Assembly (NCBI GenBank): GCA_964626965.1
Contig: CAZVHB010000003.1
Location: 12,256 to 76,255 of the forward strand
Direction: 5' to 3'
DNA from: an uncultured Candidatus Saccharibacteria bacterium
GTDB taxonomy: Bacteria; Patescibacteriota; Minisyncoccia; Phycocordibacterales; UBA9973
Length of the DNA stretch: 64,000 nt
Position numbers and translations under genes: made by a program. Shown here one piece after another: positions 303-48,790 of this stretch (within the stretch, counting starts at the first letter, position 1; every line of letters starts with the position of its first letter). The notes beneath the pieces are model-generated. The model saw only the letters and a list, made by a program, of their open reading frames with translations. It was not told the origin of the DNA and did no database searches.

Positions 303-307
303 AAAAA

Positions 308-5576: not shown

Positions 5577-5577
5577 A

Positions 5578-6570: not shown

Positions 6571-6571
6571 A

Positions 6572-8270: not shown

Positions 8271-8272
8271 AT

Positions 8273-9235: not shown

Positions 9236-9238
9236 ATG

Positions 9239-11210: not shown

Positions 11211-11221
11211 ACCTGAAATAT

Positions 11222-13264: not shown

Positions 13265-13306
13265 ACATAAATACTAGCAAAAATAGAGGGAAAAAGCCAT
13301 AAAATG

Positions 13307-23244: not shown

Positions 23245-24972
23245 TTATACTCCATACGCTTCTTGAAGTGTCGTGAGCCCAGAGAGTGCCTTAATGAGTG
23301 CATCTTCTCGAAGTGTAGTCATCCCTTTTGAACGAGCTAATTTAAAAATATCAGGTTCTACTGGACTCTTGAGAATCACTCTTTCGAGATCTTTATCAAC
23401 AGTCAAAGCCTCCATGACAGCCATACGTCCTTTCATACCTGAAGGAAATTCTTTACTTGGAATTGGTTCATACGTACATGGAGCATCTAAAGGAATGAGC
23501 TTCCTTACTTCCTCAGGAAGGTCTTCAAATTGCTTGATAATGAGAGCGCGAGTAGCTTCATCAATCGGTAGCTCTTTCTTCGGACCAGGAGCAAAAGTTC
23601 GTACAAGACGCTGACCAAGAGCGAGTGTGAGTGTCGGCGCAATCAAATACGGATCAACTCCCATATCAATTAAACGAGGAATAGCTCCAGTTGCAGTGTT
23701 GGTGTGAAGTGTTGAAAACACAATGTGACCTGTAAGCGCAGCTTGAATAGCAAGACTCGCTGTTTCAGCATCACGAATTTCTCCCACCATGATCACATCC
23801 GGGTCTTGACGGAGGATAGATCGAAGTCCAGCAGCAAATGTATATCCAATATCAGCCTGCACCTGAGACTGAGACACTCCGGGCATGTGATATTCCACAG
23901 GATCTTCTAGGGATACAACGTTCTCAGTATCTCGATCAATTTCATTTAACATAGAAAACAAAGTAGTAGACTTACCGGATCCAGTTGGACCAGTCATCAG
24001 AATAATTCCATATGGTTTATCGAGCGCTAATTTAATTGCATCAGTAGTACTTGGTCTCAAATGAAGCTCACTGAGTGATTTTACCCCTTTTTCAGCATCC
24101 AAAATACGCATCACCACCTTTTCTCCATAATAGGTTGGGAAAGTAGACAGACGAAAATCAATTTTACGACCACCAATTTGAGCTGAAAAGCCAGAGTCTT
24201 GTGGCCTTCGTTTTTCATCAAAACGAAGTTTCCCGAGAATTTTAATACGTGCAACAACCCCAGCAGAAACATTCAACGGCAGGTTGAGTACCGTATTGAG
24301 TGATCCATCTTGCCTAAAACGAACACGCACATCTTTACCAGAATTTTCAATGTGTATATCAGATGCATCCTTTGCAACAGCATCGTGCAAAATAGAGGAC
24401 ACAATTTTAATAATTGGAGCATCTTCAATAATCTTTTCTTCATCAACAAGCTCTCCTTTTTTTTGCTTACGCAGAATAGATGGATCATCAAGAGACACAA
24501 GGTCAGCACTCTCAAATTCAGTCAATGCCTCATCAACCTTATCAGAAAAATTATCGTAGTTTTTAAAAATAGCATCAAATACTTTTTGGGAGATAAGATA
24601 GTAAGCAAATGGCATACCAAGTTTCGCAACAATAAACTGTAGTGCGTCATTTGCTTGAATATTTGCTGGATCAACAACACCAACTTCAAGTGTGTTGTCA
24701 GTAACACCCAAAGGAACACAGTTATAGTACCGAGCAGATTCTTGAGGAATGTATTTTAATACTTCAAACGAAACATCTTTAGGATCAACATCTTTTGAAG
24801 GAATACCGTAAAAATCACTCTTTAAACGAAGTATTTGCTCCACAGTAAGTCCTTTCTCAATAAGCAGACTCTCTACATTGCCTTGGTGGGTGTCATTAAG
24901 TTCTTTAACAAACTCATCAAGTATCTCATTTGATATGATACCAAGCCGAGTTAAGTGCTGTAAAAATTCCAT
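23245..24972 (-). CDS. pilB: type IV pilus assembly ATPase PilB (GspE family)
   Basis: 'LMTGPTGSGKSTTLFSML', Asp/His boxes, N-terminal GSPII-like domain. Confidence 0.9.
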   Translation of the reverse strand: MEFLQHLTRLGIISNEILDEFVKELNDTHQGNVESLLIEKGLTVEQILRLKSDFYGIPSKDVDPKDVSFEVLKYIPQESARYYNCVPLGVTDNTLEVGVVDPANIQANDALQFIVAKLGMPFAYYLISQKVFDAIFKNYDNFSDKVDEALTEFESADLVSLDDPSILRKQKKGELVDEEKIIEDAPIIKIVSSILHDAVAKDASDIHIENSGKDVRVRFRQDGSLNTVLNLPLNVSAGVVARIKILGKLRFDEKRRPQDSGFSAQIGGRKIDFRLSTFPTYYGEKVVMRILDAEKGVKSLSELHLRPSTTDAIKLALDKPYGIILMTGPTGSGKSTTLFSMLNEIDRDTENVVSLEDPVEYHMPGVSQSQVQADIGYTFAAGLRSILRQDPDVIMVGEIRDAETASLAIQAALTGHIVFSTLHTNTATGAIPRLIDMGVDPYLIAPTLTLALGQRLVRTFAPGPKKELPIDEATRALIIKQFEDLPEEVRKLIPLDAPCTYEPIPSKEFPSGMKGRMAVMEALTVDKDLERVILKSPVEPDIFKLARSKGMTTLREDALIKALSGLTTLQEAYGV

Positions 24973-24977
24973 AATAA

Positions 24978-25655
24978 TTAAAGTTTAGGTGTCTTAAAAG
25001 ACTGCGTGTCCCCTGTTGTAATTTTACCGTCTTTTGTCTTAACTACAGCACGATAGTAATACACAGTATTTGGAGTAAGTTTAGTAATCGTATACGTAAA
25101 TGTAGAACTTGTACCTTTTACTGCTATAGGTGTTTTATTTTCAAAAGGAGGTGTCGCTAATTTTCCCCATTCAAAATATTGCTCTACTGTATCAGTGAGG
25201 GTATTTTCACCGACCAATAAACCACTTGAAAGAGTCGCACTAGTTACAGGGTTTGTTTTAATATACCCGGTCGTTGTAGTTGCACCCGATGTGACATATT
25301 CACCAGAAGATTCGTCACCAATAGGCAGAAAAGGGTTACTTCGGCCAACAGATTCATCGAGACGCTGTTCAGCATCAGCGGCAAGAGAAAAATCTTTGAG
25401 AGAAGTAAACTCAACTCGAGAAAATAGATTACTCGAGAGTTTAATACTGTTGATACTAAGCAGAAGTGACAAAAGCTCTTGGATATTCTCTTTTTTTACA
25501 GGAGCATCACCTGCGTCCCCGGCACTCACAGTGAGTCCATTTTTAGTTTCAGCGACAGGCCCTATATCTTGTCTCGGAGCAAATGTTTTATAGATAAAAA
25601 ATATTGTTACTAAAATAAGACCGGTAATTGTAATTTTTTTTACTGTTTTATTCAT
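24978..25655 (-). CDS. membrane-anchored hypothetical protein with C-terminal FN3-like domain inside the pil operon (PilP-like position)
   Basis: N-terminal TM 'ITITGLILVTIFFIY'; C-terminal 'VYYYRAVVKTKDGKITTGDTQSFKTP'. Confidence 0.4.
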   Translation of the reverse strand: MNKTVKKITITGLILVTIFFIYKTFAPRQDIGPVAETKNGLTVSAGDAGDAPVKKENIQELLSLLLSINSIKLSSNLFSRVEFTSLKDFSLAADAEQRLDESVGRSNPFLPIGDESSGEYVTSGATTTTGYIKTNPVTSATLSSGLLVGENTLTDTVEQYFEWGKLATPPFENKTPIAVKGTSSTFTYTITKLTPNTVYYYRAVVKTKDGKITTGDTQSFKTPKL

Positions 25656-25658
25656 ATA

Positions 25659-26282
25659 TTAACTCTTTAACCAGTACGTTTGTACCTTAAGAACATATTT
25701 AAGATTATTCCCCTCTTTTGGAACAATCTGCAATTGCTGAATGTCTACAATACGAAGACTCTTTTCAAGATCACCCAAAAAAGCGATAAAGTCACTATAT
25801 GTACCAATAAGTGTAAATTCTAATTCAAAACTTCCGTATTCTTTCTGATTTTCAAGTTCTTGTATTTTTGGATTTACAGGTTTTGCATCCTTCGCAGAAG
25901 CACCATCAGTACTTGCTGGGGCACCACCACTCACCGCACCTAACGAAGCTATTTTTTTATTTGGATCATATTTTGGATCTTCAAATGCAAGATTGTGTAC
26001 ACTTGTTGCAAGATGTTCAATTTCCAAAATAAGCTTCGTACTATTCACATCATCTGGCATTAAAATATTGAGACGATTCAAATCATCTTTCTGGAATTTA
26101 TTTTTTAAATCGAGAAGTTCTTCTCTCTTCTTGAGTAATATGGTTGAGTTTTGTACTGCTTTGTCATATTCAGCAACTTCTGCTTTTCTATCCTGAACTG
26201 CTTGATACTCATTTTTAGTAAAACCAAAAAACACACCAGCTGAGGCAAGAAGAATAAAAATCGGTAACATAAATTGTATCAT
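25659..26282 (-). CDS. pilO: type IV pilus assembly protein PilO-like
   Basis: Single N-terminal TM, coiled coil, position after pilN. Confidence 0.5.
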   Translation of the reverse strand: MIQFMLPIFILLASAGVFFGFTKNEYQAVQDRKAEVAEYDKAVQNSTILLKKREELLDLKNKFQKDDLNRLNILMPDDVNSTKLILEIEHLATSVHNLAFEDPKYDPNKKIASLGAVSGGAPASTDGASAKDAKPVNPKIQELENQKEYGSFELEFTLIGTYSDFIAFLGDLEKSLRIVDIQQLQIVPKEGNNLKYVLKVQTYWLKS

Positions 26283-26288
26283 AGGAAG

Positions 26289-27008
26289 CTAATTTGTGGT
26301 TTGACCATTACTAGTAATAGGAGGTATAGCAACTGGAGTAGACACAGGAGTCGCTTCAGGAAATGCAGCAGGTGGTGGAAGTGGTGTAGTTCGAGAACCA
26401 GATTGTGTTGCTTTCATAATATAGTTGGAATATTCAATTAAAATAGGACTTATGTCGAACATCAGGTTGAAAGTCACACTTCCATCCTTACTATTTACTA
26501 TATCTGAAAAAATCGCGTTACGTACGTATTGATTATCTGCAAGTTTTTTAGACTGGAGTGCCACATAAGGAAGAGATTCGGCTTTACCAGCAAGACGTAC
26601 TTGTATTTTAGAGGACCCACCAGTTCCAGTCACTGAATGACTAAACTGTGTGTACTGAACTTTCTTTAGAGTATTTGCATTGAGCACATTGACGAGTATT
26701 GGTGATACTGTCGTATGATTATTGAGAACTTTTTCTGCTGTATTAATACGTTTATCAAGTTGTTGTAAATCAGTAAGAGCCACTTGATCAAACTTCTCCC
26801 GAGCAGCTTTGAGGGTATTTTGTGATTTAATCACTTCTGCTTTTAGTTGGTTATTCCAAACATAAGTAAGAACAGAAAACCCGAGAACACAGAGAAGAAC
26901 AACACTCGCAATGACGGTAAAAATACTCATCGTTGTACTACTACTTGAACGAGTGGTCACGAGTGATTTTTTTGGAATGAAAGATGTTGTTTGAAAGGTT
27001 GGTTCCAT
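26289..27008 (-). CDS. pilN: type IV pilus assembly protein PilN-like
   Basis: Single TM 'VIASVVLLCVLGFSVLTYVW' then coiled-coil; follows pilM. Confidence 0.5.
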   Translation of the reverse strand: MEPTFQTTSFIPKKSLVTTRSSSSTTMSIFTVIASVVLLCVLGFSVLTYVWNNQLKAEVIKSQNTLKAAREKFDQVALTDLQQLDKRINTAEKVLNNHTTVSPILVNVLNANTLKKVQYTQFSHSVTGTGGSSKIQVRLAGKAESLPYVALQSKKLADNQYVRNAIFSDIVNSKDGSVTFNLMFDISPILIEYSNYIMKATQSGSRTTPLPPPAAFPEATPVSTPVAIPPITSNGQTTN

Positions 27009-27063
27009 AGTTTTATTTTAGTATAAATAGAGCGTTCTGTTAAGCAATGAGTCCCCAGAATAC

Positions 27064-28188
27064 CTACTGAATTTTTCGAAGTGCTACCCCGAGTGCGACT
27101 GAAAACTCAGGACCAATAGAATCCAAAACTGGTGTCAAAAAAGCTGGGGCTTCTACCTTGGAAAATGGATGGGCGATAATGACTTCAGCTGTAAAACGCT
27201 CCCTTGCAACATCAAGGATCCCTTTCAACAGAGCTCCACCCCCAGAGAGAAATATCTTTGATATTGTTTTATTACTTTTCTTTTCGTAGTTAAAGATAAC
27301 GCTTGAAGTTTCAGAAAAGATGTAGTTGAGTGAGAGAATAATAATTTCATCAATATTTTTTGCATTGGGGTCTTTATACAGTCCGTAGGTACGCTTGAGT
27401 TCTTCAGCATCAGCGAAAGAGAGACTGAGTGATTGTGATATTGCGCGAGTCATATCAACACCACCACGTCCAACAATATGAAACGTTCTTACGATACCGT
27501 ATTCCACAATAGAAAGTTTTGTCTTCCCTGCCCCAAAATCAATAAATAAAATTGGACTCAAATCATTTCCAATAACAGAACGAATGGCAGAAAATACTTC
27601 GAGCTCAAACATTGGATTAATAATTTTTGCTTTACTTAAAATATCATTGTATTGAGAAATTGTATCGTTATGAATCGCAACCGCCAATACTTCATTTTTA
27701 GGAGCAACATGGGTATCACCTTTTTTATCAAATACAGACTCTTCTTCTTTTGGGATTACCCAATAATCAAGAAGTACTTCAGATATTGGTACTGGTATAA
27801 ATTTACGTGCTTCAGTTGGAACAATGCTCTGGTACTCTTTTTCACTAATATTTGAAGGAAGCTCAAGAGTAAACAGTAAGCTGGAACTCGATGGTATCGC
27901 AACCCCTCCATCATAAACCGTCACACCAGACTCACGAATAATATCAGAGAGTGCCTGGACTATTTCAGGAACGGCAAGCGTAGTCACAGACCCGACAGGC
28001 TCTTTTTGGTACGGACCAAGTGCAAGTGTGCCGTATGTTTCTAAAATAGCTTTTCCTCCTTTCTTTTTGAGCTGTACAATCTTAATTGCAGACACACCAA
28101 CATCAATACCAATAACACTCTCGGCTGTTTTTTCAGAAGAGAATAGTTCTTTGGCTTCTTTTAGAATATCATCAAACAGATGTGTCAT
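27064..28188 (-). CDS. pilM: type IV pilus assembly protein PilM (actin-like ATPase fold)
   Basis: 'VIGIDVGVSAIKIVQLKKKGGKAILETYG', FtsA/PilM-like. Confidence 0.8.
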   Translation of the reverse strand: MTHLFDDILKEAKELFSSEKTAESVIGIDVGVSAIKIVQLKKKGGKAILETYGTLALGPYQKEPVGSVTTLAVPEIVQALSDIIRESGVTVYDGGVAIPSSSSLLFTLELPSNISEKEYQSIVPTEARKFIPVPISEVLLDYWVIPKEEESVFDKKGDTHVAPKNEVLAVAIHNDTISQYNDILSKAKIINPMFELEVFSAIRSVIGNDLSPILFIDFGAGKTKLSIVEYGIVRTFHIVGRGGVDMTRAISQSLSLSFADAEELKRTYGLYKDPNAKNIDEIIILSLNYIFSETSSVIFNYEKKSNKTISKIFLSGGGALLKGILDVARERFTAEVIIAHPFSKVEAPAFLTPVLDSIGPEFSVALGVALRKIQ

Positions 28189-32479: not shown

Positions 32480-32965
32480 TTATTTTGTTTTTGCGACTTC
32501 AGAAATACCAATTGCAAGAGATTGTATTGGAGACTTGAGAAGGTATGCAATTTGTGAAAGTAATACTTCACGAGATGGGATAGTTGCGATACCAGTCATT
32601 TGAGCAGCATCCATATACTTCCCTTCAAACACTCCACCAAGAATTGCAATTTGATCTTTGTGAGTCTTACTAAATTCATGCACAAGTCGTGCTGGAGTTA
32701 GTAAATCAGCACTGTACGCAATTGCAACTTCACCTGGAAGTTCTGGATACTCACCCTCGTGGTTAGACGCAGTAAGTACACGTTTCAAAAGTGTTTTCTT
32801 AAGAACAGTAAAACCAACGTTTTCAGCTCTGAGAGCTCTCCTTAGTTCTATTGTTTCTTTTACAGAAAGTTTCTTGAAACCGACAAAAACAACAGATTGT
32901 GCATCAACAATTTTCTCGGAAACGAGAGTAATCAATGATGCTTTTTTTTGTTTTGATATTGCCAT
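32480..32965 (-). CDS. rplJ: 50S ribosomal protein L10
   Basis: 'MAISKQKKASLITLVSEKIVDAQSVVFVGFKKLSVKETIELRRALR...'; precedes rplL. Confidence 0.9.
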   Translation of the reverse strand: MAISKQKKASLITLVSEKIVDAQSVVFVGFKKLSVKETIELRRALRAENVGFTVLKKTLLKRVLTASNHEGEYPELPGEVAIAYSADLLTPARLVHEFSKTHKDQIAILGGVFEGKYMDAAQMTGIATIPSREVLLSQIAYLLKSPIQSLAIGISEVAKTK

Positions 32966-33029
32966 ATGTTGATTAAGAATAAAAGACTTAATAAGTCATT
33001 TTATTTCTTAATTGTAAAATAAAAAAATC

Positions 33030-33140
33030 GACCTAATAAAAGCCGAAATTCTTATACACGTAGTGTCATTAGATATTTCTACCTCGGCTGGATTTACGGA
33101 AAGAATGTAGTCCTCTCCACCGGCTGTCTTCGGCTTATAC
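33030..33140 (-). promoter_or_regulatory. candidate ribosomal protein L10 leader (attenuator-type) upstream of rplJ, with sigma70-like promoter at 33145-33173
   Basis: Minus strand: TTGTAT-N17-TATATA promoter, then a ~95-nt stem-loop closed by AAGCCGAA/TTCGGCTT, followed by a U-rich tract before the rplJ AUG. Confidence 0.4.
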
Positions 33141-33370
33141 TCTATATATACCACACATTATTAAAAAATACAATTAATTAACGCGATCCAAGATCTCCCC
33201 AATCACCGCAGGAAGTTCTATCGTCTTTCCCCCTTTTATTTTACAATTCATCTCAGATAGATCACATCCATACCCTATATACAAGCTCACGAGTCCCAAG
33301 AACCCAAGACAGCAAAGCGCAAACAATGTACGTACTAAATGTGTCGTCATATACCTCTAGTATATCACAC

Positions 33371-36756: not shown

Positions 36757-37623
36757 ATGAAAAAAACAATCATTTTAGCCATCTGTGTGATGGTATCTCT
36801 GAGTTCAAAAGCTCAGAATGTTGTACTCAGTGCGAAAGCACTGTTAAGTGGGTGTTTAGACACCACCTCTCTGATTATGCACGACACTTTACGAACAAAA
36901 GGGTTAATCCCCTTACAGACACCGTACACTACGGTGGGTAACCCGTACAATTTCAGCCCTGGTGGCAGTGCTGGCGGAGAATTTATCTCTTCGTCTGTAT
37001 TAAATACCTCAACCAACAACGCAATTGTTGACTGGATCTTTATCCAGCTGAGGCCAGACACAGCAATTGGGACAGTGGTAAAAAGTCGAAGCGCCTTGAT
37101 CCAACGTGATGGTGATATTGTCGATGTTGATGGTGTTTCTCCCGTGACATTTAATGCCCCGGCCTGGAGTTACTACATCACACTTCTCCACAGGAATCAC
37201 CTTGGAGTAATGACTGCAGTACCCATACCACTAACAAGTACAGTAACGGATACGGTCGATTTTACGACAGATCCACTGTATGTAAAAAATGATGTACTCT
37301 ACAATACACCAGCGAGACTCATCCAAGGGAAACAGACTCTCTGGCTCGGGAACACAAATCACGACCGAAATGTAAAGTACAATGGAGGCAGTTTTCTGAT
37401 CTATCCAAACCAAACCATCAGGAATAACGACAAGGAATTTATTTTCATGGCCATAGGGGGTGCTATTTTTCTTCCGATAAATTCATCTTACAGAGATGAA
37501 GATGTCAACATGGATGGTAAAATCCTGTACAATGGCCCAGGAAATGACAAGAACATAATCCTCTACCAGCTTAGTGCAGCGGGTAGTAGTAATCTAACCA
37601 TTGGGCAACATACCCCAAACTAA
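36757..37623 (+). CDS. secreted hypothetical protein
   Basis: Signal peptide 'MKKTIILAICVMVSLSSKAQN'; 288 aa. Confidence 0.45.
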   Translation: MKKTIILAICVMVSLSSKAQNVVLSAKALLSGCLDTTSLIMHDTLRTKGLIPLQTPYTTVGNPYNFSPGGSAGGEFISSSVLNTSTNNAIVDWIFIQLRPDTAIGTVVKSRSALIQRDGDIVDVDGVSPVTFNAPAWSYYITLLHRNHLGVMTAVPIPLTSTVTDTVDFTTDPLYVKNDVLYNTPARLIQGKQTLWLGNTNHDRNVKYNGGSFLIYPNQTIRNNDKEFIFMAIGGAIFLPINSSYRDEDVNMDGKILYNGPGNDKNIILYQLSAAGSSNLTIGQHTPN

Positions 37624-37648
37624 TTTTTTCTACCCCAACCAACAACCC

Positions 37649-37678
37649 AAAAAACGAACCCCTGTGGTTCGTTTTTTT
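37649..37678 (+). terminator. rho-independent terminator
   Basis: AACGAACC-CCTGT-GGTTCGTTTTTTT. Confidence 0.7.
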
Positions 37679-37824
37679 AATACAAAAAATACACACACAG
37701 AATGTGTTTACAAATAATCAATTACATTGTATATTCATATCAAGATTATTCTTTAAAAAGAATTTTGTGATTACAAGAGCCATCAAAGATTGATACTTCT
37801 TGTAATCACAAAAACTTATAAAAA

Positions 37825-38448
37825 ATGAAAAAAATTAAATATTTTTTACTCTATGCAGTATGCATGTTCCCTCTTACGGAACTCTACGCACAAACAGACA
37901 AAGAAAAAGAAGTTGAACAAAGTCTCGCGATGATGACAAGTGACCAAATTGTTGAAAGCTTTATATCCTTCATACAAACCCAAGTCACACCACAAGAAGC
38001 GACCGCTCTGATCAAAAAAAAGGTGGTCTATAAACAGCTTCTAAATACAGCCCCGAAAAATGTAAAGATGACATTTATCATTGCGGATTCGGTAGAAAAA
38101 GCTGATCCAGTGATGCAAGGCAAAAGCTACCATCTTGTTTTTAGTGAACTACACACTGAACATAATAAGTACAAGCGATTTATCGCCCTCGATGCCGACT
38201 TAAGTAACATCTTAAAAAACACAAAAAACCTACAAGCACAAAAAGCAATTCAACGTTTTCAACGATATGTTGCAATAATGCAGTGCATAGAAACAATGGA
38301 AGAAGGACGCACGTATGTAGTCATACTCACAGGTAGCTCAGCGTCTGGAGTGATTAGCTTTGTGCATCGTAAAAATACGAATCCCAAAAAAAATATTTTT
38401 ATACATAACACAACAGGTATTAATGTACCAATATTTGCAAAAATATAA
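37825..38448 (+). CDS. secreted hypothetical protein
   Basis: Signal peptide 'MKKIKYFLLYAVCMFPLTELYAQ'; 207 aa. Confidence 0.45.
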   Translation: MKKIKYFLLYAVCMFPLTELYAQTDKEKEVEQSLAMMTSDQIVESFISFIQTQVTPQEATALIKKKVVYKQLLNTAPKNVKMTFIIADSVEKADPVMQGKSYHLVFSELHTEHNKYKRFIALDADLSNILKNTKNLQAQKAIQRFQRYVAIMQCIETMEEGRTYVVILTGSSASGVISFVHRKNTNPKKNIFIHNTTGINVPIFAKI

Positions 38449-38519
38449 AAATTAATTTTAATAAAAAAAATCCTTTCAATTAAATGAGAGGATTTTTTAT
38501 ATACAATAAACTTCCGAGT

Positions 38520-39620
38520 TTAGTAGGTTTGAATAACAATAACAAGCCCAGAATTGTAGTTACTCACGTAGAGTTTTGTGCCAACGAGTGTCGCATATGA
38601 TGGACCAGTAGAAACTGGGATCACTTGGAGCACACTGTTAGAAACTGTGCTGATCGCCGATACAGAGTTAGAGAGGTTGTTGTTTGTATATATTCGTGAA
38701 CCGACAACTGTAGAAAAATAGTTATGTACACCACCAGTTACTATTGGTGTTGGGAGCACCGTATTTGTCGTTGTATCAATTACAGAGATAGTACTATTTC
38801 CATAATTATTGACATAGAGTTTTGTACCAACAGACACAGATGAAGTTGGATTTACTCCGACAGACAATGTAGTGATAAGCGTATTTGTTACTGTATTGAT
38901 TACGGCAACTTGATTCGTAAAATATAAATTTACATACAATTTATTTCCAACAAGGGTCGCAGAGCGAGGATATGTACCAAGTGATACAACTCCCAAGAAA
39001 GTACTCGTTACTGTATCGTAAATAGTAATTCCAGGGTAGTTCAAAACTGTATTATCATTATCTCCAATATAGAGTTTCGTCCCAACTGCTGTAATAGTGC
39101 TTGGGTTAATCCCCACATAAATACTTGGAAGGAGGGTGTTCGTCACGGTATCGATGACTGGAATTTCACCAATCCCATTTCCTCCGTTAATGACATACAG
39201 TTTTGTTCCGATAGCCGTCGAAAATGTCGGATAACCACCAATGGTAAGTGTTGTGGTAACTGTATTCGTAGTGGTATTAATCACGGAGACTGTTCCCCCT
39301 GTATTATTCACATAGACATATGAACCAACTGCAGTAAGATCATACGGATGCACCCCCACAGGAATATTCATTATGTTTGTGTTGGTTGCGGTGTCGATTA
39401 CAGAGACAGTATTAGCGAGATAGTTACTCACATACACCTTGCCACCAACGGCAACAGAAAAATGAGCCCCATTACCTGTTTGGATTTTAGTGATAATTCG
39501 ATCAATTTTAACTGATACTTCAGCACCATCTACAATAGCTGGTGTACACATAATAAAAACACAAAAAACAAGAACCACTATACACACTATGTTCCCTAAA
39601 AGGGATTTTTGACTTTTCAT
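38520..39620 (-). CDS. YVTN-family beta-propeller repeat protein, N-terminally membrane-anchored/secreted
   Basis: About 8 tandem ~40-aa repeats 'G.KLYV.N...NTVSVIDT.TNTV..TI.VG..P' (YVTN propeller); N-terminal hydrophobic helix. Confidence 0.6.
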   Translation of the reverse strand: MKSQKSLLGNIVCIVVLVFCVFIMCTPAIVDGAEVSVKIDRIITKIQTGNGAHFSVAVGGKVYVSNYLANTVSVIDTATNTNIMNIPVGVHPYDLTAVGSYVYVNNTGGTVSVINTTTNTVTTTLTIGGYPTFSTAIGTKLYVINGGNGIGEIPVIDTVTNTLLPSIYVGINPSTITAVGTKLYIGDNDNTVLNYPGITIYDTVTSTFLGVVSLGTYPRSATLVGNKLYVNLYFTNQVAVINTVTNTLITTLSVGVNPTSSVSVGTKLYVNNYGNSTISVIDTTTNTVLPTPIVTGGVHNYFSTVVGSRIYTNNNLSNSVSAISTVSNSVLQVIPVSTGPSYATLVGTKLYVSNYNSGLVIVIQTY

Positions 39621-39713
39621 AAGAAATACATTATTTTCCTTTAATGTATTTTACATTACCACAAAGTAATAATTATGTAAATATCATCTATACTATACTG
39701 TTACTTCTTGAGA

Positions 39714-41366
39714 CTAGTTTGTTTGGATGACGCTCACAGTGCCAGAACCATAATTTGAAACATAGAGTTTTGTTCCTACGGCTGTTGAGTAAGATGGACC
39801 AGAGCCCACTGTTACCGTACTTGTTACTGTGTTTGAAAGTGTATCGATAACGGAGACGGTACCTGATGAGTTGTTATTTGTGTACACCTTACTACTGAGC
39901 GTAGTGGAGTATTGCGTGTTGCTACCAACAGAGATAGTCGAAATTACTCCATTCGTAGTTACATTAATAACTGAGACAGTTCCACCATTTTGGTTATTGA
40001 CATAGAGTGCATTACCCACAACGACTGAGTATGCTGGACTCGTACCGACGGGAATAGTAGTAGAGAGGGTTTCTGTTGACGTGTTAATCACAGCAACTTG
40101 GTTGGTCAAGTTAAGATTGATGAACAATTTAGTTCCTGAGAGGGTTGCTGATTTTGGAACAGAAGGGAGAGTGATAAAGTTAGTAATAATACCTGAAGTT
40201 GTGTCGAGAATATGAACCCCTGGGTTAAATGGATCGGTCTCTGGTATATAAATCTTTGCACCAACAACTGTCAGTGAACCGGAACTACTTGCATAAATCC
40301 AACTATCATATGTATTTGTCGTTGTATTGATAACTGTAAGTCCAGAAGTATCAGATACGTACAATTTAGTACCGACGGCGACTGCCCATATTGGCATGAA
40401 GCCAACAGTTGTGATTGTTGTTGAGACAGTATCAGTTGCAGTATTAATTACCGATACAGTGTTAGAGCCTGAATTAGGTACATATACATATGATCCAACT
40501 GCAGTAAGTGCATACGGATGACTTCCTACAGGAATAGTTGCAATCAATGTATCAGTTGCAGTATTAATTACCGATACAGTATTTGCATTGTAATTACTGA
40601 CATACACTTTGGATCCTGCAGCAACAGAGAAGTGAGAACCACTTCCAGTAGTGATAGTCGAGATAACGCTAGGGCCTGAGATTGCACCACCAACAGTGAA
40701 TGAGACATTGGAAACCTGGGTTCCACCCGTAAAGGTTGAGGTGATTGTTATAATTTGAGTACCCGCACTATACGCATTTGTGGTAGTACACGTAACAGTT
40801 GTACTGATTGCCGGACTCGGTGAACATATGTACCCAGGAATTGTGACCACATCACCTATGTTTGTAGAAACGATAATGTCAGGAGTAGTATCAGGAGTTG
40901 AAAACGGCATTGTTGCAGAACCCCCAAGGCTCAACACTGGACCAGTCGCATTATTACAACTCTTTGGTCCTGCTGTATTAAGTAGTAAACCAGGAACTTG
41001 TTTTGAATTACCATCAGCATCAATACACCAATATCGAGAAGGATCAGTTTTCATAGGAACAACAAGAGCAAAAGATGTTGCATCTGAATAGCTACTATAT
41101 GTACCTGGAGCAAGCCCCGCATCAGTAATGAGCTTTGTTAATTTTGTGGCCGCAGCGCCTGATGTAAATATATTCGTAAATGGAGTAGATCCCGCATTCG
41201 TCTGACTCATAACTTCAGCCTGAAGACTCTTGAGTGATCCAACACGACGAGCATCTTCCCCTTTCGCGCGTGCTTCTTGGAGTGTTGGAAGAAATACTGA
41301 TGCAAGAAATGACACAATCGCCATAACAATAAGAAGCTCAATAAGTGTAAAAGCCTTTTGATTCAT
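39714..41366 (-). CDS. type IV pilin-like protein (class III signal peptide) fused to Thr-rich linker and YVTN beta-propeller; paralogue of 38520-39620
   Basis: 'MNQKAFTLIELLIVMAIVSFLASV' prepilin N-methylation motif (start chosen at 41366; the ORF-track start 41453 adds 29 aa). C-terminal repeats are near-identical to the neighbouring gene. Confidence 0.6.
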   Translation of the reverse strand: MNQKAFTLIELLIVMAIVSFLASVFLPTLQEARAKGEDARRVGSLKSLQAEVMSQTNAGSTPFTNIFTSGAAATKLTKLITDAGLAPGTYSSYSDATSFALVVPMKTDPSRYWCIDADGNSKQVPGLLLNTAGPKSCNNATGPVLSLGGSATMPFSTPDTTPDIIVSTNIGDVVTIPGYICSPSPAISTTVTCTTTNAYSAGTQIITITSTFTGGTQVSNVSFTVGGAISGPSVISTITTGSGSHFSVAAGSKVYVSNYNANTVSVINTATDTLIATIPVGSHPYALTAVGSYVYVPNSGSNTVSVINTATDTVSTTITTVGFMPIWAVAVGTKLYVSDTSGLTVINTTTNTYDSWIYASSSGSLTVVGAKIYIPETDPFNPGVHILDTTSGIITNFITLPSVPKSATLSGTKLFINLNLTNQVAVINTSTETLSTTIPVGTSPAYSVVVGNALYVNNQNGGTVSVINVTTNGVISTISVGSNTQYSTTLSSKVYTNNNSSGTVSVIDTLSNTVTSTVTVGSGPSYSTAVGTKLYVSNYGSGTVSVIQTN

Positions 41367-41524
41367 TCTATTGTTAAATCGACACCATTTTTTAGAACCA
41401 GAAAGTGTACAATTTTTGATAAATTTTTTTGCGTAAGATTGAGCTAAATTCATATACCTTTATAATACGTGGAATAGGGTTGTATTGCAAACGACCAGCA
41501 CGGTCTTTTGCACCTTCTATAGAG

Positions 41525-41557
41525 AAAAGCAGGGCGCCCATAGGGCGCCCTGCTTTT
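41525..41557. terminator. bidirectional terminator downstream of nrdB
   Basis: AAAAGCAGGGCGCC-CATA-GGGCGCCCTGCTTTT. Confidence 0.75.
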
Positions 41558-41643
41558 CTATGCCTCTTGTTTTATCATTTAGCATTTATAACCCCGAAGC
41601 TCTGTTCGGGATCCCGACTTTACGTCGGGATTTAGCATTATTA

Positions 41644-42642
41644 CTACTTTTCTTCTTCTTTCTTTGAGTGTCCACTCGCATCTACTTCATACGCAGTGTT
41701 TTGTGCTTCAAAAAAGTTTACGAGTTCGTACACATCTGTTGCACCTGACATCCATTTTGCTGGATTGGTTGCGTTGTAGTATTTTGGCATACCGAGTTCT
41801 TCGAGTCTTCGATCAGCGACATACTTCACATATTGGTTCACATAGTCAGCGTTCAGTCCCAAAATTCCATTTGGGAACAAGTCTTTGTTGTATGCAACTT
41901 CGAGATCTACTCCTTCGATAACAATATTTCGAATTTCTTCAGCAAACTCTGGAGTAAGGATTTCATGGTTCTCTTCCAAGATGTTCATAATGAGGTTCAT
42001 TCCAAATTTCAAGTGGAGTGATTCATCTCGAATTACCCAGTTGACCATTGATCCGAAGTTTCTAAGTTTATTTCTCTGACGGAAAGAGAGTACCACCATA
42101 AATCCTGAGTAGAACCAGATTCCTTCCATGACGATATTGGTCGCAACAAGGTTTCGGATGAAATCCTTCTTCCCTTCTGGACTCTCGATATCGAGCGTGA
42201 CTTCTGTCATACGCTTGAGATAGTTTGTGATGAACGCTTCTTTCTTGACCATCGAATCAGTAATCGTGTGGATTTTGTAAATCGTATCGCGATCCATCGG
42301 AAATGTTTCAAGAACGTATTCAAATGCAACACAGTGATTTGCTTCTTCCCACATTTGTTTTGCGAGATAGAGGTGACATTCAGGTGACTTGATATATGGA
42401 TACACACCGAGCGCAAGCGAACGATTCACAATAAGTTCTGCTGGATTAAAGAATGACATCAAAAATCGTACAGCGTGACGTTCATCTTCGGTCATTGCAC
42501 TCCAGTCAGTGAGATCTTCACCGAGTGGAATTTCGTGAGGAAACCAGGTGTTTCGCACAGCTTGGTTGTAGAGTTCGTATGCCCATTTGTAGTGCATTGG
42601 GTGAAGACTTGTGTCTTCTGGTGAGGCTTTTCCTAGTAACAT
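41644..42642 (-). CDS. nrdB: ribonucleoside-diphosphate reductase beta subunit (class Ia)
   Basis: Diiron ligand motifs 'EEANHCVAFEYVLE', 'ESLHLKFG...'; 332 aa. Confidence 0.85.
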   Translation of the reverse strand: MLLGKASPEDTSLHPMHYKWAYELYNQAVRNTWFPHEIPLGEDLTDWSAMTEDERHAVRFLMSFFNPAELIVNRSLALGVYPYIKSPECHLYLAKQMWEEANHCVAFEYVLETFPMDRDTIYKIHTITDSMVKKEAFITNYLKRMTEVTLDIESPEGKKDFIRNLVATNIVMEGIWFYSGFMVVLSFRQRNKLRNFGSMVNWVIRDESLHLKFGMNLIMNILEENHEILTPEFAEEIRNIVIEGVDLEVAYNKDLFPNGILGLNADYVNQYVKYVADRRLEELGMPKYYNATNPAKWMSGATDVYELVNFFEAQNTAYEVDASGHSKKEEEK

Positions 42643-42671
42643 AGTAGATTATAGATTAATTAATAACTTCT

Positions 42672-45263
42672 TTATTCGCACCCTTCACAAATATTTGCAT
42701 CGTTTGGATCAGTCGGTCCATGAACAGTGATTTTTACTTTTGCTGTTGCACTTGGTACTGCGATTTCAACTAAATCTTCTGTAATTGTTTCTACTGCATG
42801 TGCTTCAATCTTTGCGTCTACAAGCGGTGAAACGGTTTCGAATGTGGTGACAGGACTTACAACTACTCCTTCTTCTTTTGGAGTAAAGAGTCCAGCAAAA
42901 CCACGATGACCCATAGCTTCTGATTTATTCACACGAGTCGTTGATTGTTCAGCTGTATGTGTTGGCTTCATGTGAAGGTAGTATGTTGTTTTCAAACCTT
43001 TCTCCCATGCAGTACTGTATACCTTCATCACTTCATTCACATCACGAATAGAGAGATACATGTTTCGAGAGATTGCTTGGTCTACCCATTTTTGTGCACG
43101 AGCGGCAACTTCGATAAAAGCGAGTGGTGATGTACTAAATGATGTTTTATAAATATCTTTCACATATTGTGGAATTTCTGAAATTTCTTCAATGTCGCCA
43201 TGATTTTCAAGAATTTGCTCACGCACCTTTTCCCAGAGTCCGAGTGCTCGGAGGTCTGATACGAGGTTTGGATTCACTTCAAGATATTTTCCAGAAATTT
43301 TATTTCGAGAGAACATTTGTGCAAAACGAGGATCGATACCAGGGGAAGTTCCAGCGACGAGACCAATATTTGCATTTGGGGCAATCGCAAGCACTGTTGC
43401 ATTTCGAATCCCCTTCTTTACTTTCTTTCGGAGTTCATCCCAATCAAGTTGTGGAATACCTGCAACAGATTCAACTGGAGTAGAGAAAGATTCACCGCGG
43501 AGTTCTTTGAGTTTCTTGAGTGAATCAATTGGAACCATTCCTTTTGACCAACCTGACCCTTCAAAGTTTTTGTATGAACCACGTTCTTCAGCAAGCTTCG
43601 CACTCTCATCAATCGCCATGTAAGAAATAAATTCAAACACCTTGTCAGAAAAATCATGTGCTTGGACATCTTCATAAGAAAAACCGAGTTGTTCAATAGC
43701 ATCAGCAAATCCCATCACACCGAGTCCTACTGCCCTGTTTTCACTATCAGCTTTTTTTGCTTCGGCGACAGTAAGTTGGTTTACATCAATCAAGTTATCG
43801 AGCTGTCGTGTTGCTAATCGTGCTGATTCCTCAAGGCGCATCCAGTCGATTTGTTTGTTCACAATGTGACGCGCAATGTTAATAGAGATCAAGTTACACA
43901 CGGCAATATTGTCTTTATCTTGAGGGAGCGTGACTTCAGTACAAAGGTTTGAACAGTGAATTGTTCCAGTATTGTTATTGAGTGCGCGAACGTTGATCGT
44001 ATCTTTCCAAGTAAGCCATGGATGAGATGTTGTCTGGAGTGAGACGAGGATATTCTTGTATTGTTGTCGAGCTGGGAGCTTTTGCCAGAGAGTTATTTTC
44101 CCTTCTTCGGCCATTTGGCAGTATTCATTGTATCTTTTTGAAAATGCTTCTCCGTAAAGCTCAACGAGATCAGAAACTTCTTTTGGATCAAACAAATACC
44201 AGTCTTTGTCTTCTTGTACACGATTCATGAATTCATCTGAGAGATACACAGCAGTATTTGCTGTACGAGTACGTCTGTAGTCGTCTCCTGCATTTTGTTT
44301 CAGATCAAGGAAATCTTGGAAATCGATATGCCAGTTTTCCATGTAGAAACAGAGTGCTCCTTTTTTCTTTCCACCACGTTGCACAGCGCGAACAGCAGAG
44401 TCGATGATATGAAGAAATGGAATCGGTCCAGATGAAATAGTATTGTTTGATTTGAGTGTTGATCCGTTTGCTCGAAGTTTTGTCACAGCAAGTCCAATAC
44501 CACCAGTTGCTTTTGAAAGCATGAGCACATCTTTGACTGTCTTTCCGATATGATCCATATCGTCTTCGACTTGCATCAAGTAACAGTTTGAAAGCGATGC
44601 ACGTGTTGTTCCTGCGCCGATATTTGTTGAACCAGCTGAAAGATATTCAAGTCGTGACATTTTGTCATAGAATTTTTTTGCAACTTCATTTGGATTTTTT
44701 TCAAAGAGTGACATTCCCATCGCAACACGCATCCAAAAGTATTGAGGAATCTCGAGAGGGTTTTGTTTGCTATCTTTAATGAGGTAGCGGTCTTTCATTG
44801 TTGAGAGTCCAGAGTACTTGTAGAGCTCATCGCGTTCTGGTTTAAGAAATCCTGCGAGTTCATCGAGGTTGAATAATGTTCCGAGTTTTGGATCAAGAAG
44901 TCCAAGTTCTACACAGAGTTTGATGTAGTGAGAAAAATGTTCTTTATGAAGCTTATTAAATTCTTCTTTCGTCTCAAAATCCCCTATCGCTTTTTTGTAG
45001 ATAGTTTTTAGGAGGAGTCGTGTCGCAATTTTATCGTAATCGAGGTCGTATTGTGCGTTTTGAAGAGCAGCATTGATAGTCGCTTGGTCCAATTCTTCAG
45101 TCGTAATACCACTATAGAGCGTCAATTCTGTTTCTGACGCGATCTGGGTAACTTTTTCAATTGGATTTTCAATACCAATACACGCACGTTCGATCGATTT
45201 ATTAATCTGATCTGCATTAAATGGGACTTTCTCTCCATCTCGTTTTGTGACCAATATACTCAT
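42672..45263 (-). CDS. nrdA: ribonucleoside-diphosphate reductase alpha subunit (class I) with N-terminal ATP-cone and C-terminal CxxC tail
   Basis: 'ILVTKRDGEKVPFNADQINKSIERA' ATP cone, active-site 'NLCTE', C-terminal '...CEGCE'. Start placed at MSILVTK; the ORF-track start at 45359 is possible. Confidence 0.85.
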   Translation of the reverse strand: MSILVTKRDGEKVPFNADQINKSIERACIGIENPIEKVTQIASETELTLYSGITTEELDQATINAALQNAQYDLDYDKIATRLLLKTIYKKAIGDFETKEEFNKLHKEHFSHYIKLCVELGLLDPKLGTLFNLDELAGFLKPERDELYKYSGLSTMKDRYLIKDSKQNPLEIPQYFWMRVAMGMSLFEKNPNEVAKKFYDKMSRLEYLSAGSTNIGAGTTRASLSNCYLMQVEDDMDHIGKTVKDVLMLSKATGGIGLAVTKLRANGSTLKSNNTISSGPIPFLHIIDSAVRAVQRGGKKKGALCFYMENWHIDFQDFLDLKQNAGDDYRRTRTANTAVYLSDEFMNRVQEDKDWYLFDPKEVSDLVELYGEAFSKRYNEYCQMAEEGKITLWQKLPARQQYKNILVSLQTTSHPWLTWKDTINVRALNNNTGTIHCSNLCTEVTLPQDKDNIAVCNLISINIARHIVNKQIDWMRLEESARLATRQLDNLIDVNQLTVAEAKKADSENRAVGLGVMGFADAIEQLGFSYEDVQAHDFSDKVFEFISYMAIDESAKLAEERGSYKNFEGSGWSKGMVPIDSLKKLKELRGESFSTPVESVAGIPQLDWDELRKKVKKGIRNATVLAIAPNANIGLVAGTSPGIDPRFAQMFSRNKISGKYLEVNPNLVSDLRALGLWEKVREQILENHGDIEEISEIPQYVKDIYKTSFSTSPLAFIEVAARAQKWVDQAISRNMYLSIRDVNEVMKVYSTAWEKGLKTTYYLHMKPTHTAEQSTTRVNKSEAMGHRGFAGLFTPKEEGVVVSPVTTFETVSPLVDAKIEAHAVETITEDLVEIAVPSATAKVKITVHGPTDPNDANICEGCE

Positions 45264-45569
45264 GACCTGTAACTCATCATTAACCTTCTTGTAAAAAAAT
45301 ACATGCGAATCGGTCATCAAAAAACCAAACAAAGAATTCCTCACTTGGTTTGTATGCACTTTTCACACCCTCCTAAAAACTTTAGTACTCTTATTCTAAT
45401 CCTTTGCAAAAAAAATGTAAACAAAAAGTATAGTCAAATCACCCGAGAAAGAATATAAAAATGCAAGTCAATACACACTACTAAATAAGGTATACAGTGT
45501 AAGATTTTTTCGGTCTGTCCACAGGTGTTTTTTAAGACAAAAAGTATTAAGATTAGACGCAAAACATAC

Positions 45570-47269: not shown

Positions 47270-47361
47270 AAATCAAACAGACGCAAAGGGCTATCGAAAG
47301 ATGGCTTTTTTTATTACCATCTCCACAATTATAAAAACCTCTTACGAGGTTTTTATAATTG

Positions 47362-47750: not shown

Positions 47751-47875
47751 ATATTTTGTTCTTAATGTGCTCCATACAAAAGACGTACATGTCAGTATAC
47801 CATTACACATCAAAAGTAAGAAATCAAAAATTTGCATTATTTTTTTATTTATTGTAAAATAAACAAAAAAATATT

Positions 47876-48753: not shown

Positions 48754-48790
48754 TATGTCTATTATACAGAAATTATTGTAAAATGGATGA

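What the first reader, a model, noticed from the sequence alone, without database searches (positions are those of the whole stretch)
36757..41453. Surface locus with a type IV pilin N-terminus fused to a ~450-aa YVTN beta-propeller and a membrane-anchored paralogue
39714-41366 begins with a canonical prepilin leader/N-methyl-Phe helix (KAFTLIELLIVMAIV), continues with a Thr-rich linker and then eight YVTN blades. 38520-39620 is a recent paralogue (long stretches are identical at the protein and DNA level, e.g. the 32-nt repeat GTATCAGTTGCAGTATTAATTACCGATACAGT occurs twice) but has an ordinary N-terminal anchor instead of a pilin domain. Two secreted hypotheticals precede them. A pilin carrying a whole beta-propeller is unusual. 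It could be a pilus-tip adhesin, which would be relevant to host attachment in episymbiotic CPR bacteria. The gene has its own strong promoter.
Basis: partly seen in the sequence, partly recalled or inferred. Interest (0 to 1): 0.6.

Follow-up and report, generated by a model that had tools for sequence, protein, structure and literature searches.

The report
Type IV pilin carrying a beta-propeller
A tiny symbiotic-type (CPR) bacterium encodes a pilus subunit with a complete eight-bladed beta-propeller fused to its end, most likely a sticky pilus tip; the design is already known in outline, so this is a new variant, not a new kind.

Summary
The core observation holds. ORF 39714-41366 (-) is one continuous gene. 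It encodes a prepilin leader and N-methyl motif, a complete pilin head, a ~90-aa Ser/Thr-rich linker and an eight-bladed YVTN beta-propeller. HMM scores pass the curated cut-offs and the AlphaFold2 propeller has pLDDT 95-98.

Several details are wrong:
- The downstream 366-aa propeller protein is an old paralogue: 55% aa, 59% nt, 39% third-position identity, longest exact match 16 nt.
- Both copies of the quoted 32-nt repeat lie inside the pilin gene, in blades 1 and 2.
- The two "preceding" secreted genes are on the opposite strand and convergent.
- The promoter match is only 9/12.

Context supports a real pilin. A pilM-(N)-O-x-pilB operon lies 11 kb away, and RecA places the organism in Patescibacteria (Paceibacteria/Nomurabacteria-like).

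Relatives carry the same pilin "carrier" in the same slot between RNR and a methyltransferase, but with different cargo: YVTN, NHL-like or PD40. More distant members of the carrier family, whose genomic context was not examined, carry DUF5122 propellers or Ig-like domains.

This is a modular type IV pilin in the sense of Raynaud 2021. It parallels the propeller-bearing PilX2 host-binding pilin of Saccharibacteria (Grossman 2025). It is a new variant of a known kind, of moderate interest.

The parts
41505..41645 (-). Stable hairpins ending the upstream ribonucleotide-reductase operon. The last is GCAGGGCGCCC-TAT-GGGCGCCCTGC followed by UUUUCUCU. They insulate the pilin gene transcriptionally.
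   Evidence: strand folding gives dG -62.2 kcal/mol and z -7.1; 0 of 200 shuffles fold as well. Sequence read.
41462..41491 (-). Sigma-70-like promoter candidate (TTGCAA-17-TATTAT) upstream of the pilin gene. The match is moderate.
   Evidence: 9 of 12 matches. The region has 28 such sites against 17 +/- 3.9 expected, so the site is weak evidence on its own.
41352..41366 (-). Short prepilin leader MNQKA. Position -1 is Ala, where homologues have Gly. An alternative upstream ATG at 41453 would give a 34-aa leader and the same mature protein.
   Evidence: alignment A2. NCBI's own gene call is the 579-aa form, P0001.
40938..41351 (-). Pilin 'carrier' module (mature residues F6-P143): F1/E5 N-methylation motif, long alpha1 helix, alpha-beta loop helix, four-stranded sheet, and a Cys114...Cys137 D-region.
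   Evidence: PF07963 31.3 bits and TIGR02532 27.3 bits. AF2 gives H8-57, H71-83 and E91-125 at pLDDT 73-92 per 10-residue block across residues 11-140. The profile matches solved PilA/PilE major pilins at E 1e-6 to 1e-5. Both Cys are invariant in A2.
40671..40937 (-). Linker or small domain of 89 aa, 38% Ser/Thr/Asn, two Cys, no K/R. It is absent from the closest homologues P0002 and P0003 and is a possible O-glycosylation target.
   Evidence: AF2 pLDDT 32-57 with a few strands. Composition. No homologue among the fetched sequences. Absence in P0002/P0003 seen.
39717..40670 (-). Eight-bladed YVTN beta-propeller 'cargo' (residues 233-550). It is almost uncharged (7 K+R, 9 D+E) and 42% S+T+N.
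   Evidence: TIGR02276 151.5 bits. AF2 gives 32 strands at pLDDT 95-98. Foldseek: 1l0q_A YVTN S-layer domain E 5.5e-20 with 27% identity; eight-bladed Tako8 TM 0.90; BamB TM ~0.75. Composition.
40429..40580 (.). Two exact 32-nt copies (40429-40460 and 40549-40580) encoding NTVSVINTATDT in blades 1 and 2 of the pilin propeller. This is an intragenic repeat.
   Evidence: 2 matches, 0 expected. The Logan contig L001 ends inside the pilin gene at about this position. An assembly break at the repeat is my inference; the assembler's k-mer size is recalled, not checked.
38520..39620 (-). Non-pilin paralogue of 366 aa: N-terminal hydrophobic helix (signal peptide or anchor) followed by an eight-bladed YVTN propeller. 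Probably co-transcribed with the pilin gene.
   Evidence: TIGR02276 143.9 bits. 55% aa identity to the pilin propeller. AF2 pLDDT 91.3, H8-23 plus about 31 strands. The 93-nt intergenic region has no significant structure (z -0.87).
38452..38510 (.). Bidirectional terminator-like hairpin with A/U tracts on both sides, between the convergent 366-aa and 207-aa genes.
   Evidence: strand folding z -3.98 (- strand) and -4.98 (+ strand); 0 of 200 shuffles fold as well.
37825..38448 (+). Convergent 207-aa signal-peptide protein of unknown family. It has a positional homologue in relative L002 (201 aa, 31% identity).
   Evidence: No Pfam hit and only sub-threshold NCBIfam matches. blastp.
36757..37623 (+). 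Convergent 288-aa signal-peptide protein of unknown family. It is not conserved in the relatives' loci and is probably not part of the system.
   Evidence: No family hit. No similarity to the 287/288-aa genes at the same position in L002 and L003.
23245..28188 (-). Type IV pilus assembly operon, 11.5 kb from the pilin gene on the same strand: pilM (27064-28188), pilN-position gene (26289-27008), pilO (25659-26282), unknown 225-aa gene (24978-25655), pilB ATPase (23245-24972).
   Evidence: PilM: TIGR01175 149.6 bits (cut-off 133) and PF11104 114.6 bits. PilO: PF04350 27.4 bits. PilB: PF00437 371.7 bits plus MshEN, and TIGR02538 484 bits.

Best explanation
The gene encodes a modular minor type IV pilin.

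Shown: the domain architecture, the predicted folds, a T4P assembly operon in the window, the CPR origin, and cargo swapping on a conserved carrier at a syntenic slot.

Inferred mechanism:
1. A prepilin peptidase removes the short leader (MNQKA) and methylates Phe1.
2. The hydrophobic alpha1 helix and pilin head insert the subunit into filaments built by the pilM/N/O/pilB machinery.
3. The bulky cargo (89-aa Ser/Thr-rich tether plus a 318-aa eight-bladed YVTN propeller) is displayed, most likely at the pilus tip.
4. There it acts as a ligand-binding adhesin, probably for host-cell surface glycan or protein. This Patescibacteria cell is presumably episymbiotic.
5. The co-transcribed free propeller paralogue is exported separately. 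It may act as a short-range surface adhesin after pilus retraction.
For: - Pilin identity. N_methyl and TIGR02532 score above their cut-offs. F1 and E5 are present. AF2 gives a canonical lollipop pilin (50-residue alpha1 helix plus four-stranded sheet). The Cys pair is conserved. The profile hits solved major pilins.
- One ORF, not an artefact. The same fusion appears in independent assemblies: P0002 (JGI and Logan) and P0003 (NCBI MAG).
- Machinery. pilM, pilO and pilB are in the window.
- Modularity. The profile search finds only 8 close carriers among 1.84 billion representatives. Their cargoes are YVTN, NHL-like, PD40, DUF5122 propellers and Ig-like domains, and there is a 152-aa stand-alone pilin ending exactly at the junction.
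- Same slot, different cargo. The slot between RNR and the methyltransferase holds different cargo in L002, L003 and L086.
- Fast evolution. The pilin module is 52-60% identical and the free paralogue 48-56%, against 74-98% for most flanking housekeeping genes (metallophosphoesterase 55-63% to L003).
- Function by analogy. S. sanguinis PilB is a modular pilin adhesin (PMC8179133). TM7x PilX2 is a propeller-bearing pilin needed for efficient host binding (PMC12206443).
Against: - No PilD, PilC, PilT or major pilin is found in the 64-kb window. The gene is an orphan, not part of a pilin cluster.
- Position -1 is Ala rather than the usual Gly.
- No ligand can be inferred. The propeller has no recognisable binding motif and matches only generic scaffolds.
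- Tip location, adhesion and any role for the paralogue are inferences.
- The paralogue is absent from L086, and no same-type propeller gene follows the pilin in L087; the 304-aa gene after the pilin in L088 was not examined. The pairing is therefore not obligatory.
Confidence: 0.6

Rival explanations
1. The class III signal peptide is used only for export and anchoring. The protein would be a pilin-like, membrane-tethered or short-pseudopilus surface protein (as in archaeal bindosome proteins or T2SS pseudopilins), not a subunit of long type IV pili. The propeller would then sit at the cell surface.
For: - The gene is an orphan, 11.5 kb from the T4P operon, with no other pilin gene in the window.
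- The free paralogue next door is evidently a cell-surface or secreted protein.
- The NCBIfam sub-threshold hits include GspG/GspH pseudopilins and ComG pilins.
Against: - A complete, well-predicted pilin head with a D-region is retained and conserved. That would be unnecessary for mere anchoring.
- The module is full-length similar to about 150-aa stand-alone pilins.
- CPR bacteria have no outer membrane for a T2SS to cross. This is general knowledge and was not tested here.
Confidence: 0.2
2. The protein is a DNA receptor of a competence pilus. The YncE-like propeller would bind extracellular DNA for uptake, as ComP or ComZ do in other systems.
For: - There are weak YncE matches: PF21783 at 22.3 bits (below cut-off) and NF052280 at 28 bits.
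- E. coli YncE is reported to bind DNA. This is recalled from memory and was not checked here.
- ComGC/ComGE sub-threshold hits on the pilin N terminus.
- recA and the T4P operon are adjacent.
Against: - The propeller has only 7 K+R in 318 residues, pI 5.8, and is 42% S/T/N. That is a poor DNA-binding surface.
- All YncE scores are far below their cut-offs.
- In TM7x the propeller pilin did not affect competence (PMC11623550).
Confidence: 0.07
3. The cargo is an enzyme delivered by the pilus, for example a lactonase-like or lyase-like propeller acting on the host envelope.
For: - Homologues carry faint PF10282 Lactonase or Vgb_lyase annotations.
- Raynaud et al. list peptidase-bearing modular pilins.
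Against: - The window protein has no enzyme-family hit at or near a cut-off.
- There is no conserved catalytic or metal-binding motif, and only 16 charged residues in the propeller.
- The best structural matches are non-enzymatic scaffolds: the S-layer YVTN domain, BamB and Lp49.
Confidence: 0.05

Closest known systems
Modular type IV pilins (Raynaud et al., PNAS 2021, PMC8179133), e.g. Streptococcus sanguinis PilB (pilin + vWA) and PilC (pilin + lectin)
   Same: An N-terminal IPR012902/PF07963 pilin module is followed, after a linker, by a bulky domain not specific to pilus biology. The predicted role is tip-displayed adhesion. Many catalogued examples come from CPR phyla.
   Different: - The cargo here is an eight-bladed YVTN propeller.
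- IPR011964/YVTN is absent from their Dataset S1 of 264 architectures.
- A few other entries in that list appear to be propeller-type repeats present in 1-5 proteins each and left undiscussed. My reading of those InterPro numbers (PD40, NHL, RCC1, FG-GAP, lactonase) is from memory.
- A free paralogue is paired with the pilin here.
PilX2 of Nanosynbacter lyticus TM7x (Grossman et al., ISME J 2025, PMC12206443)
   Same: A CPR minor pilin with a lollipop pilin fold plus a C-terminal beta-propeller. It is the candidate adhesin of a type IV pilus, and its deletion halves host binding.
   Different: - PilX2 has a seven-bladed RCC1 propeller. The window protein has no RCC1 hit.
- PilX2 has no predicted PilD signal and sits in a pilin cluster.
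- The window protein has a canonical N_methyl motif, eight YVTN blades, an orphan location, and comes from a Paceibacteria-like rather than a Saccharibacteria genome.
PilY1/PilC tip adhesins of Pseudomonas, Neisseria and Myxococcus
   Same: A beta-propeller is presented at the tip of a type IV pilus and mediates adhesion.
   Different: - PilY1 is not a pilin. It docks onto a minor-pilin complex through its IPR008707 propeller, and its variable module is N-terminal.
- Here the propeller is covalently fused to the pilin and is itself the variable cargo.
- No PilY1-family hit was found.
YVTN beta-propeller of the Methanosarcina mazei surface-layer protein (PDB 1L0Q)
   Same: It is the best sequence and structure match for the cargo (E 5.5e-20, 27% identity). 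It belongs to the same TIGR02276 repeat family and is also a cell-surface display context.
   Different: As I recall it, 1L0Q is seven-bladed and followed by PKD domains in an S-layer protein. The window propeller has eight blades and superposes best on eight-bladed propellers (Tako8 TM 0.90, BamB).

Membership tests
Type IV pilin (class III signal peptide protein) | N-terminal methylation/cleavage motif recognised by PF07963 / TIGR02532 | tested here: met
   31.3 bits (cut-off 21.2) and 27.3 bits (cut-off 16.3).
Type IV pilin (class III signal peptide protein) | Gly at -1, Phe (or Met) at +1, Glu at +5 | tested here: inconclusive
   F+1 and E+5 are present. Position -1 is Ala (GCT), whereas all four close homologues have Gly. 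Ala at -1 is reported to be tolerated by prepilin peptidases; this is recalled and was not checked here.
Type IV pilin (class III signal peptide protein) | Long N-terminal alpha1 helix packed on a four-stranded antiparallel sheet (lollipop fold) | tested here: met
   AF2 gives H8-57 and E91-94, 99-104, 111-116, 121-125 at pLDDT 73-92 per 10-residue block across residues 11-140.
Type IV pilin (class III signal peptide protein) | C-terminal disulfide-bonded D-region | tested here: met
   Cys114 and Cys137 are invariant in carrier alignment A2. The disulfide bond itself cannot be tested here.
Type IV pilin (class III signal peptide protein) | Dedicated prepilin peptidase (PilD) and platform protein (PilC) in the genome | not testable with these tools
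   Neither was found among the window ORFs of 110 aa or more that were scanned. The remaining ~24 kb of the contig and the rest of the genome could not be retrieved.
Type IV pilin (class III signal peptide protein) | Assembly machinery (PilM/N/O, PilB ATPase) present | tested here: met
   pilM 149.6 bits (cut-off 133), PilO 27.4 bits (cut-off 22), PilB/T2SSE 371.7 bits, at 23245-28188.
Modular pilin (sensu Raynaud et al. 2021) | A pilin module plus an additional C-terminal domain that is not specific to pilus biology | tested here: met
   Pilin module residues 1-143 plus YVTN propeller residues 233-550 in one ORF. A stand-alone pilin, P0270, ends exactly at the junction.
YVTN beta-propeller repeat family (TIGR02276) | Multiple ~40-residue YVTN repeats forming a closed propeller | tested here: met
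   151.5 bits (cut-off 27.85) with six reported stretches. There are eight 40-aa repeats in the sequence and eight blades in the AF2 model.
PilY1/PilC tip adhesin family | C-terminal PilC/PilY1 beta-propeller domain (IPR008707) | tested here: not met
   No such Pfam or NCBIfam hit at E <= 0.1. The protein is itself a pilin, unlike PilY1.
PilX2-type RCC1-propeller pilin (TM7x) | Seven-bladed RCC1-repeat propeller and a non-canonical signal peptide | tested here: not met
   No RCC1 hit, eight YVTN blades and a canonical N_methyl motif. It is a functional analogue, not a family member.

The most novel reading that the evidence does not exclude
In this Paceibacteria lineage the slot between the ribonucleotide-reductase operon and the SAM methyltransferase would be a host-range cassette. 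A conserved pilin 'carrier' is recombined with interchangeable beta-propeller or Ig 'cargo' modules, much as phages swap receptor-binding proteins. The adjacent exported paralogue of the same propeller type would serve as a second-stage, short-range adhesin or as a reservoir for cargo exchange. Together these would determine which host cell the episymbiont can attach to.
Probability: 0.25. Interest if true: 0.65.

Novelty: new variant of a known kind. Interest (0 to 1): 0.4.

Why it matters
How uncultivated CPR/Patescibacteria recognise and attach to their hosts is largely unknown. Only Saccharibacteria have experimental data.

This locus offers a concrete, fast-evolving candidate host-recognition determinant in a different CPR class, and it has three useful properties:
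- a clean carrier/cargo boundary;
- natural cargo variants in syntenic positions of related genomes;
- a soluble ~320-aa propeller that could be expressed and used as a probe for the host ligand.

It also extends the catalogue of modular pilins with a YVTN-propeller architecture. I found this architecture neither in the published list nor in the searchable literature.

Tried and rejected
- Exact-sequence look-ups of the 550-aa and 579-aa pilin found no retrievable contig. Look-ups from the window edges did not extend the contig. PilD, PilC and the major pilin therefore could not be sought in the rest of the genome.
- A word-indexed homology search with the 150-aa pilin module alone missed even its known relatives and returned 5 weak hits. 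The exhaustive profile search replaced it.
- The genome-contig scan was swamped by the generic GFTLIELLI pattern. The best hit was a Kaiserbacteria MAG at 38% identity, and it gave no taxonomy for the source.
- The metagenome-contig scan with head-only alignment A4 recovered only the already known L086 contig.
- Gene conversion between the paralogues is rejected. Third-position identity is 39% and the longest exact match is 16 nt. There is only a small local rise at residues 279-298.
- Exchange between pilin-borne and free propellers: the NJ tree is unresolved (21.5% support for a free-propeller clade). There is no positive evidence for exchange.
- A frameshift or mis-assembly fusion is rejected, because the same architecture occurs in independent assemblies.
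- The afdb50 fold library was unavailable.
- Literature searches for YVTN plus pilin found nothing relevant.

Full report
WHAT IS IN THE SEQUENCE

The region holds four ORFs.
- Two are on the minus strand: 39714-41366 (550 aa; the ORF stays open up to an ATG at 41453, giving 579 aa) and 38520-39620 (366 aa).
- Two are on the plus strand: 36757-37623 (288 aa) and 37825-38448 (207 aa). These are convergent with the first pair and lie downstream of it. They do not precede it.

THE PILIN-PROPELLER GENE

The 550-aa protein starts MNQKA|FTLIELLIVMAIV.
- It passes the curated cut-offs of PF07963 N_methyl (31.3 bits against 21.2) and TIGR02532 (27.3 against 16.3).
- It scores 151.5 bits on the YVTN repeat model TIGR02276, whose cut-off is 27.85.
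- A six-frame motif scan finds no other prepilin N terminus in the 64-kb window.

The AlphaFold2 model was built from 50 sequences and has mean pLDDT 84.8. It shows three parts:
- a canonical lollipop pilin, with alpha1 helix 8-57, a second helix 71-83 and four strands 91-125;
- a poorly predicted 89-residue Ser/Thr-rich segment, residues 144-232;
- 32 strands forming eight four-stranded blades, residues 233-550, at pLDDT 95-98.

Foldseek matches the propeller to the archaeal S-layer YVTN domain 1L0Q (E 5.5e-20, 27% identity). It superposes best on eight-bladed propellers: designer Tako8 at TM 0.90 and BamB at about 0.75.

The propeller is nearly uncharged, with 7 K+R and 9 D+E in 318 residues, 42% S+T+N and pI 5.8.

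THE PARALOGUE

The 366-aa protein is also an eight-bladed YVTN propeller. TIGR02276 scores 143.9 bits, and the AF2 model has pLDDT 91.3 with an N-terminal helix 8-23.

It is not a recent copy.
- Identity to the pilin propeller is 55% at the protein level.
- Identity is 59% at the nucleotide level and 39% at third codon positions, and the longest exact DNA match is 16 nt.

Both copies (40429-40460 and 40549-40580) lie in the pilin gene, one blade apart. The Logan contig L001 ends inside the pilin gene at about this repeat. I infer an assembly break there.

The N terminus could be a cleavable Sec signal or an anchor. That cannot be settled here.

TRANSCRIPTION UNIT
- The upstream RNR operon ends in very stable hairpins (dG -62 kcal/mol, z -7.1).
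- A moderate 9/12 promoter-like site follows at 41490-41462.
- The 93-nt gap between the pilin gene and the paralogue has no significant structure (z -0.87).
- A bidirectional terminator-like hairpin sits at 38452-38510 (z -4 to -5).
- The pilin gene and its paralogue therefore look like a two-gene unit with its own promoter. 'Strong' is not shown.

CONTEXT AND ORGANISM

A type IV pilus assembly operon lies at 23245-28188 on the same strand.
- It contains pilM (149.6 bits, cut-off 133), a pilN-position gene, pilO, an unknown 225-aa gene and the pilB ATPase (T2SSE 371.7 bits plus MshEN).
- No PilC, PilD, PilT or major pilin was found among the scanned window ORFs.

RecA is 82-84% identical to proteins named Nomurabacteria, Paceibacterota or Patescibacteria. 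The CPR attribution is therefore supported.

RELATIVES

The fusion recurs in independent assemblies.
- P0002 is 493 aa; its propeller is 80% identical to the window's.
- P0003 is 494 aa and 43% identical over the full length.
- About ten of the best 120 hits combine N_methyl with a propeller.

Synteny is conserved in three related loci.
- L003 has RNR, a pilin-YVTN gene, a free YVTN propeller, then the methyltransferase and adk.
- L002 has two tandem cassettes in the same slot: pilin-NHL-like plus a free NHL-like propeller, then pilin-YVTN plus a free YVTN propeller.
- L086 has a pilin-PD40 gene in the same slot and no free paralogue.

An exhaustive profile search with the pilin module finds only eight close carriers among 1.84 billion representatives.
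- Their cargoes include YVTN, NHL-like, PD40 and DUF5122 propellers and Ig-like domains. One carrier (P0267) had no recognisable cargo domain.
- A 152-aa stand-alone pilin (P0270, a slightly weaker hit outside those eight) ends exactly at the junction, just after the second Cys.

Carrier modules are 54-72% identical whatever the cargo. P0003 and P0062 come from one genome and are 72% identical in the carrier, yet they bear unrelated propellers.

The cassette evolves faster than most of its neighbours.
- RNR is 89-98% identical, the methyltransferase 81%, adk 74-75% and L10 86%. The metallophosphoesterase is 80% identical to L002 but only 55-63% to L003, so it overlaps the cassette range.
- The pilin module is 52-60% identical and the free paralogue 48-56%.

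A neighbour-joining tree of the propellers does not resolve whether pilin-borne and free copies exchange.

COMPARISON WITH WHAT IS KNOWN

The protein fits the definition of a modular pilin given by Raynaud et al. 2021 (PMC8179133).
- Their InterPro survey lists 1,219 proteins in 264 architectures, many from CPR phyla.
- It has no YVTN entry.
- It includes a few rare entries that I read as propeller-type repeats. That reading of the InterPro numbers is from memory.

The closest functional precedent is PilX2 of the Saccharibacterium TM7x (Grossman et al., ISME J 2025, PMC12206443).
- PilX2 is a minor pilin with a C-terminal seven-bladed RCC1 propeller.
- Its deletion halves host binding.
- It lacks a predicted PilD signal.

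The window protein differs in four ways: propeller family and blade number, a canonical prepilin motif, an orphan location and its lineage. It is not a PilY1 homologue. No paper in the library links YVTN with a pilin fusion.

MECHANISM

Most likely (confidence 0.6), this is a PilD-processed minor pilin that displays the propeller on type IV pili as an adhesin, probably at the tip. The co-transcribed free propeller may be a short-range surface adhesin. This echoes the tether-then-contact model proposed for TM7x.

What is shown: the architecture, the predicted folds, the machinery in cis, the cargo swapping and the CPR origin.

What is inferred: processing, incorporation into filaments, tip location, the ligand and the role of the paralogue.

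Rivals:
- a pilin-like surface anchor that does not enter filaments (0.2);
- a DNA receptor (0.07), disfavoured by the uncharged surface;
- a pilus-delivered enzyme (0.05).

VERDICT

The main observation is real, and several of its details need correcting. The interpretation as a pilus adhesin is plausible. The design principle is published, including an experimentally studied propeller-bearing pilin in CPR. I rate it a new variant of a known kind, with interest 0.4. The cargo-swapping slot and the paired free paralogue are the parts worth following up.

Noticed in passing
window 23245-28188 (-): Type IV pilus assembly operon pilM / pilN-position gene / pilO / unknown 225-aa gene with a weak FN3-like hit / pilB, directly next to recA (22029-23105). 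PilC, PilD and PilT are not in the window.
   Followed up: partly
window 122-15337: Large glycan-synthesis cluster: a Wzt-like ABC ATPase, several GT2/GT11/GT17 glycosyltransferases, a GDP-mannose 4,6-dehydratase (9239-10312) and further NAD-dependent epimerase/dehydratase-family genes (8273-9235, 10302-11210), possibly GDP-fucose synthesis. It also has two ~680-aa Wzy_C (O-antigen-ligase-like) proteins, one with TPR repeats (11222-15337). As I recall, Wzy_C enzymes include pilin O-oligosaccharyltransferases, so they could glycosylate the Ser/Thr-rich pilin linker. Untested.
   Followed up: partly
window 40429-40460 and 40549-40580; L001: The 32-nt exact intragenic repeat (blades 1 and 2) coincides with the end of the only Logan contig carrying this locus. 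The pilin gene is therefore truncated there. Fusions of this kind may be under-represented in short-k-mer assemblies.
   Followed up: partly
window 47359-47750 (-) and 48310-48825 (-): tmRNA (Rfam 111.4 bits) with smpB close by. ORFs listed at 47527-47862 overlap the tmRNA and are probably spurious.
   Followed up: no
window 33012-33151 (-): Ribosomal protein L10 leader (RF00557, 50.1 bits; gathering score 44) upstream of rplJ (32480-32965).
   Followed up: no
window 56525-59305 (-): 926-aa protein with TrwB/TraG-type coupling-protein ATPase signatures (PF10412, PF12696) in an otherwise housekeeping neighbourhood. Its function in a CPR genome is unclear.
   Followed up: no
window 41644-45359 vs L002/L003: The class I RNR genes are 97-98% identical to those of relative L002, while adjacent genes (adk, methyltransferase, LOG-like) are only 74-82% identical. 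In L003 the RNR large subunit is split into two ORFs (345 + 515 aa). Possible causes are strong constraint, recent transfer or assembly error. Not resolved.
   Followed up: no
L086 8001-10067 (P0028): The PD40-cargo relative contains two tandem copies of the pilin head domain (two profile matches) before the propeller, which is a further elaboration of the carrier.
   Followed up: no
window 15570-17561 (-): 663-aa protein with an N-terminal PG_binding_1 domain and no other family hit. Several YVTN-propeller homologues of the pilin cargo in other organisms also carry PG_binding_1. This protein shows no similarity to the propeller.
   Followed up: partly
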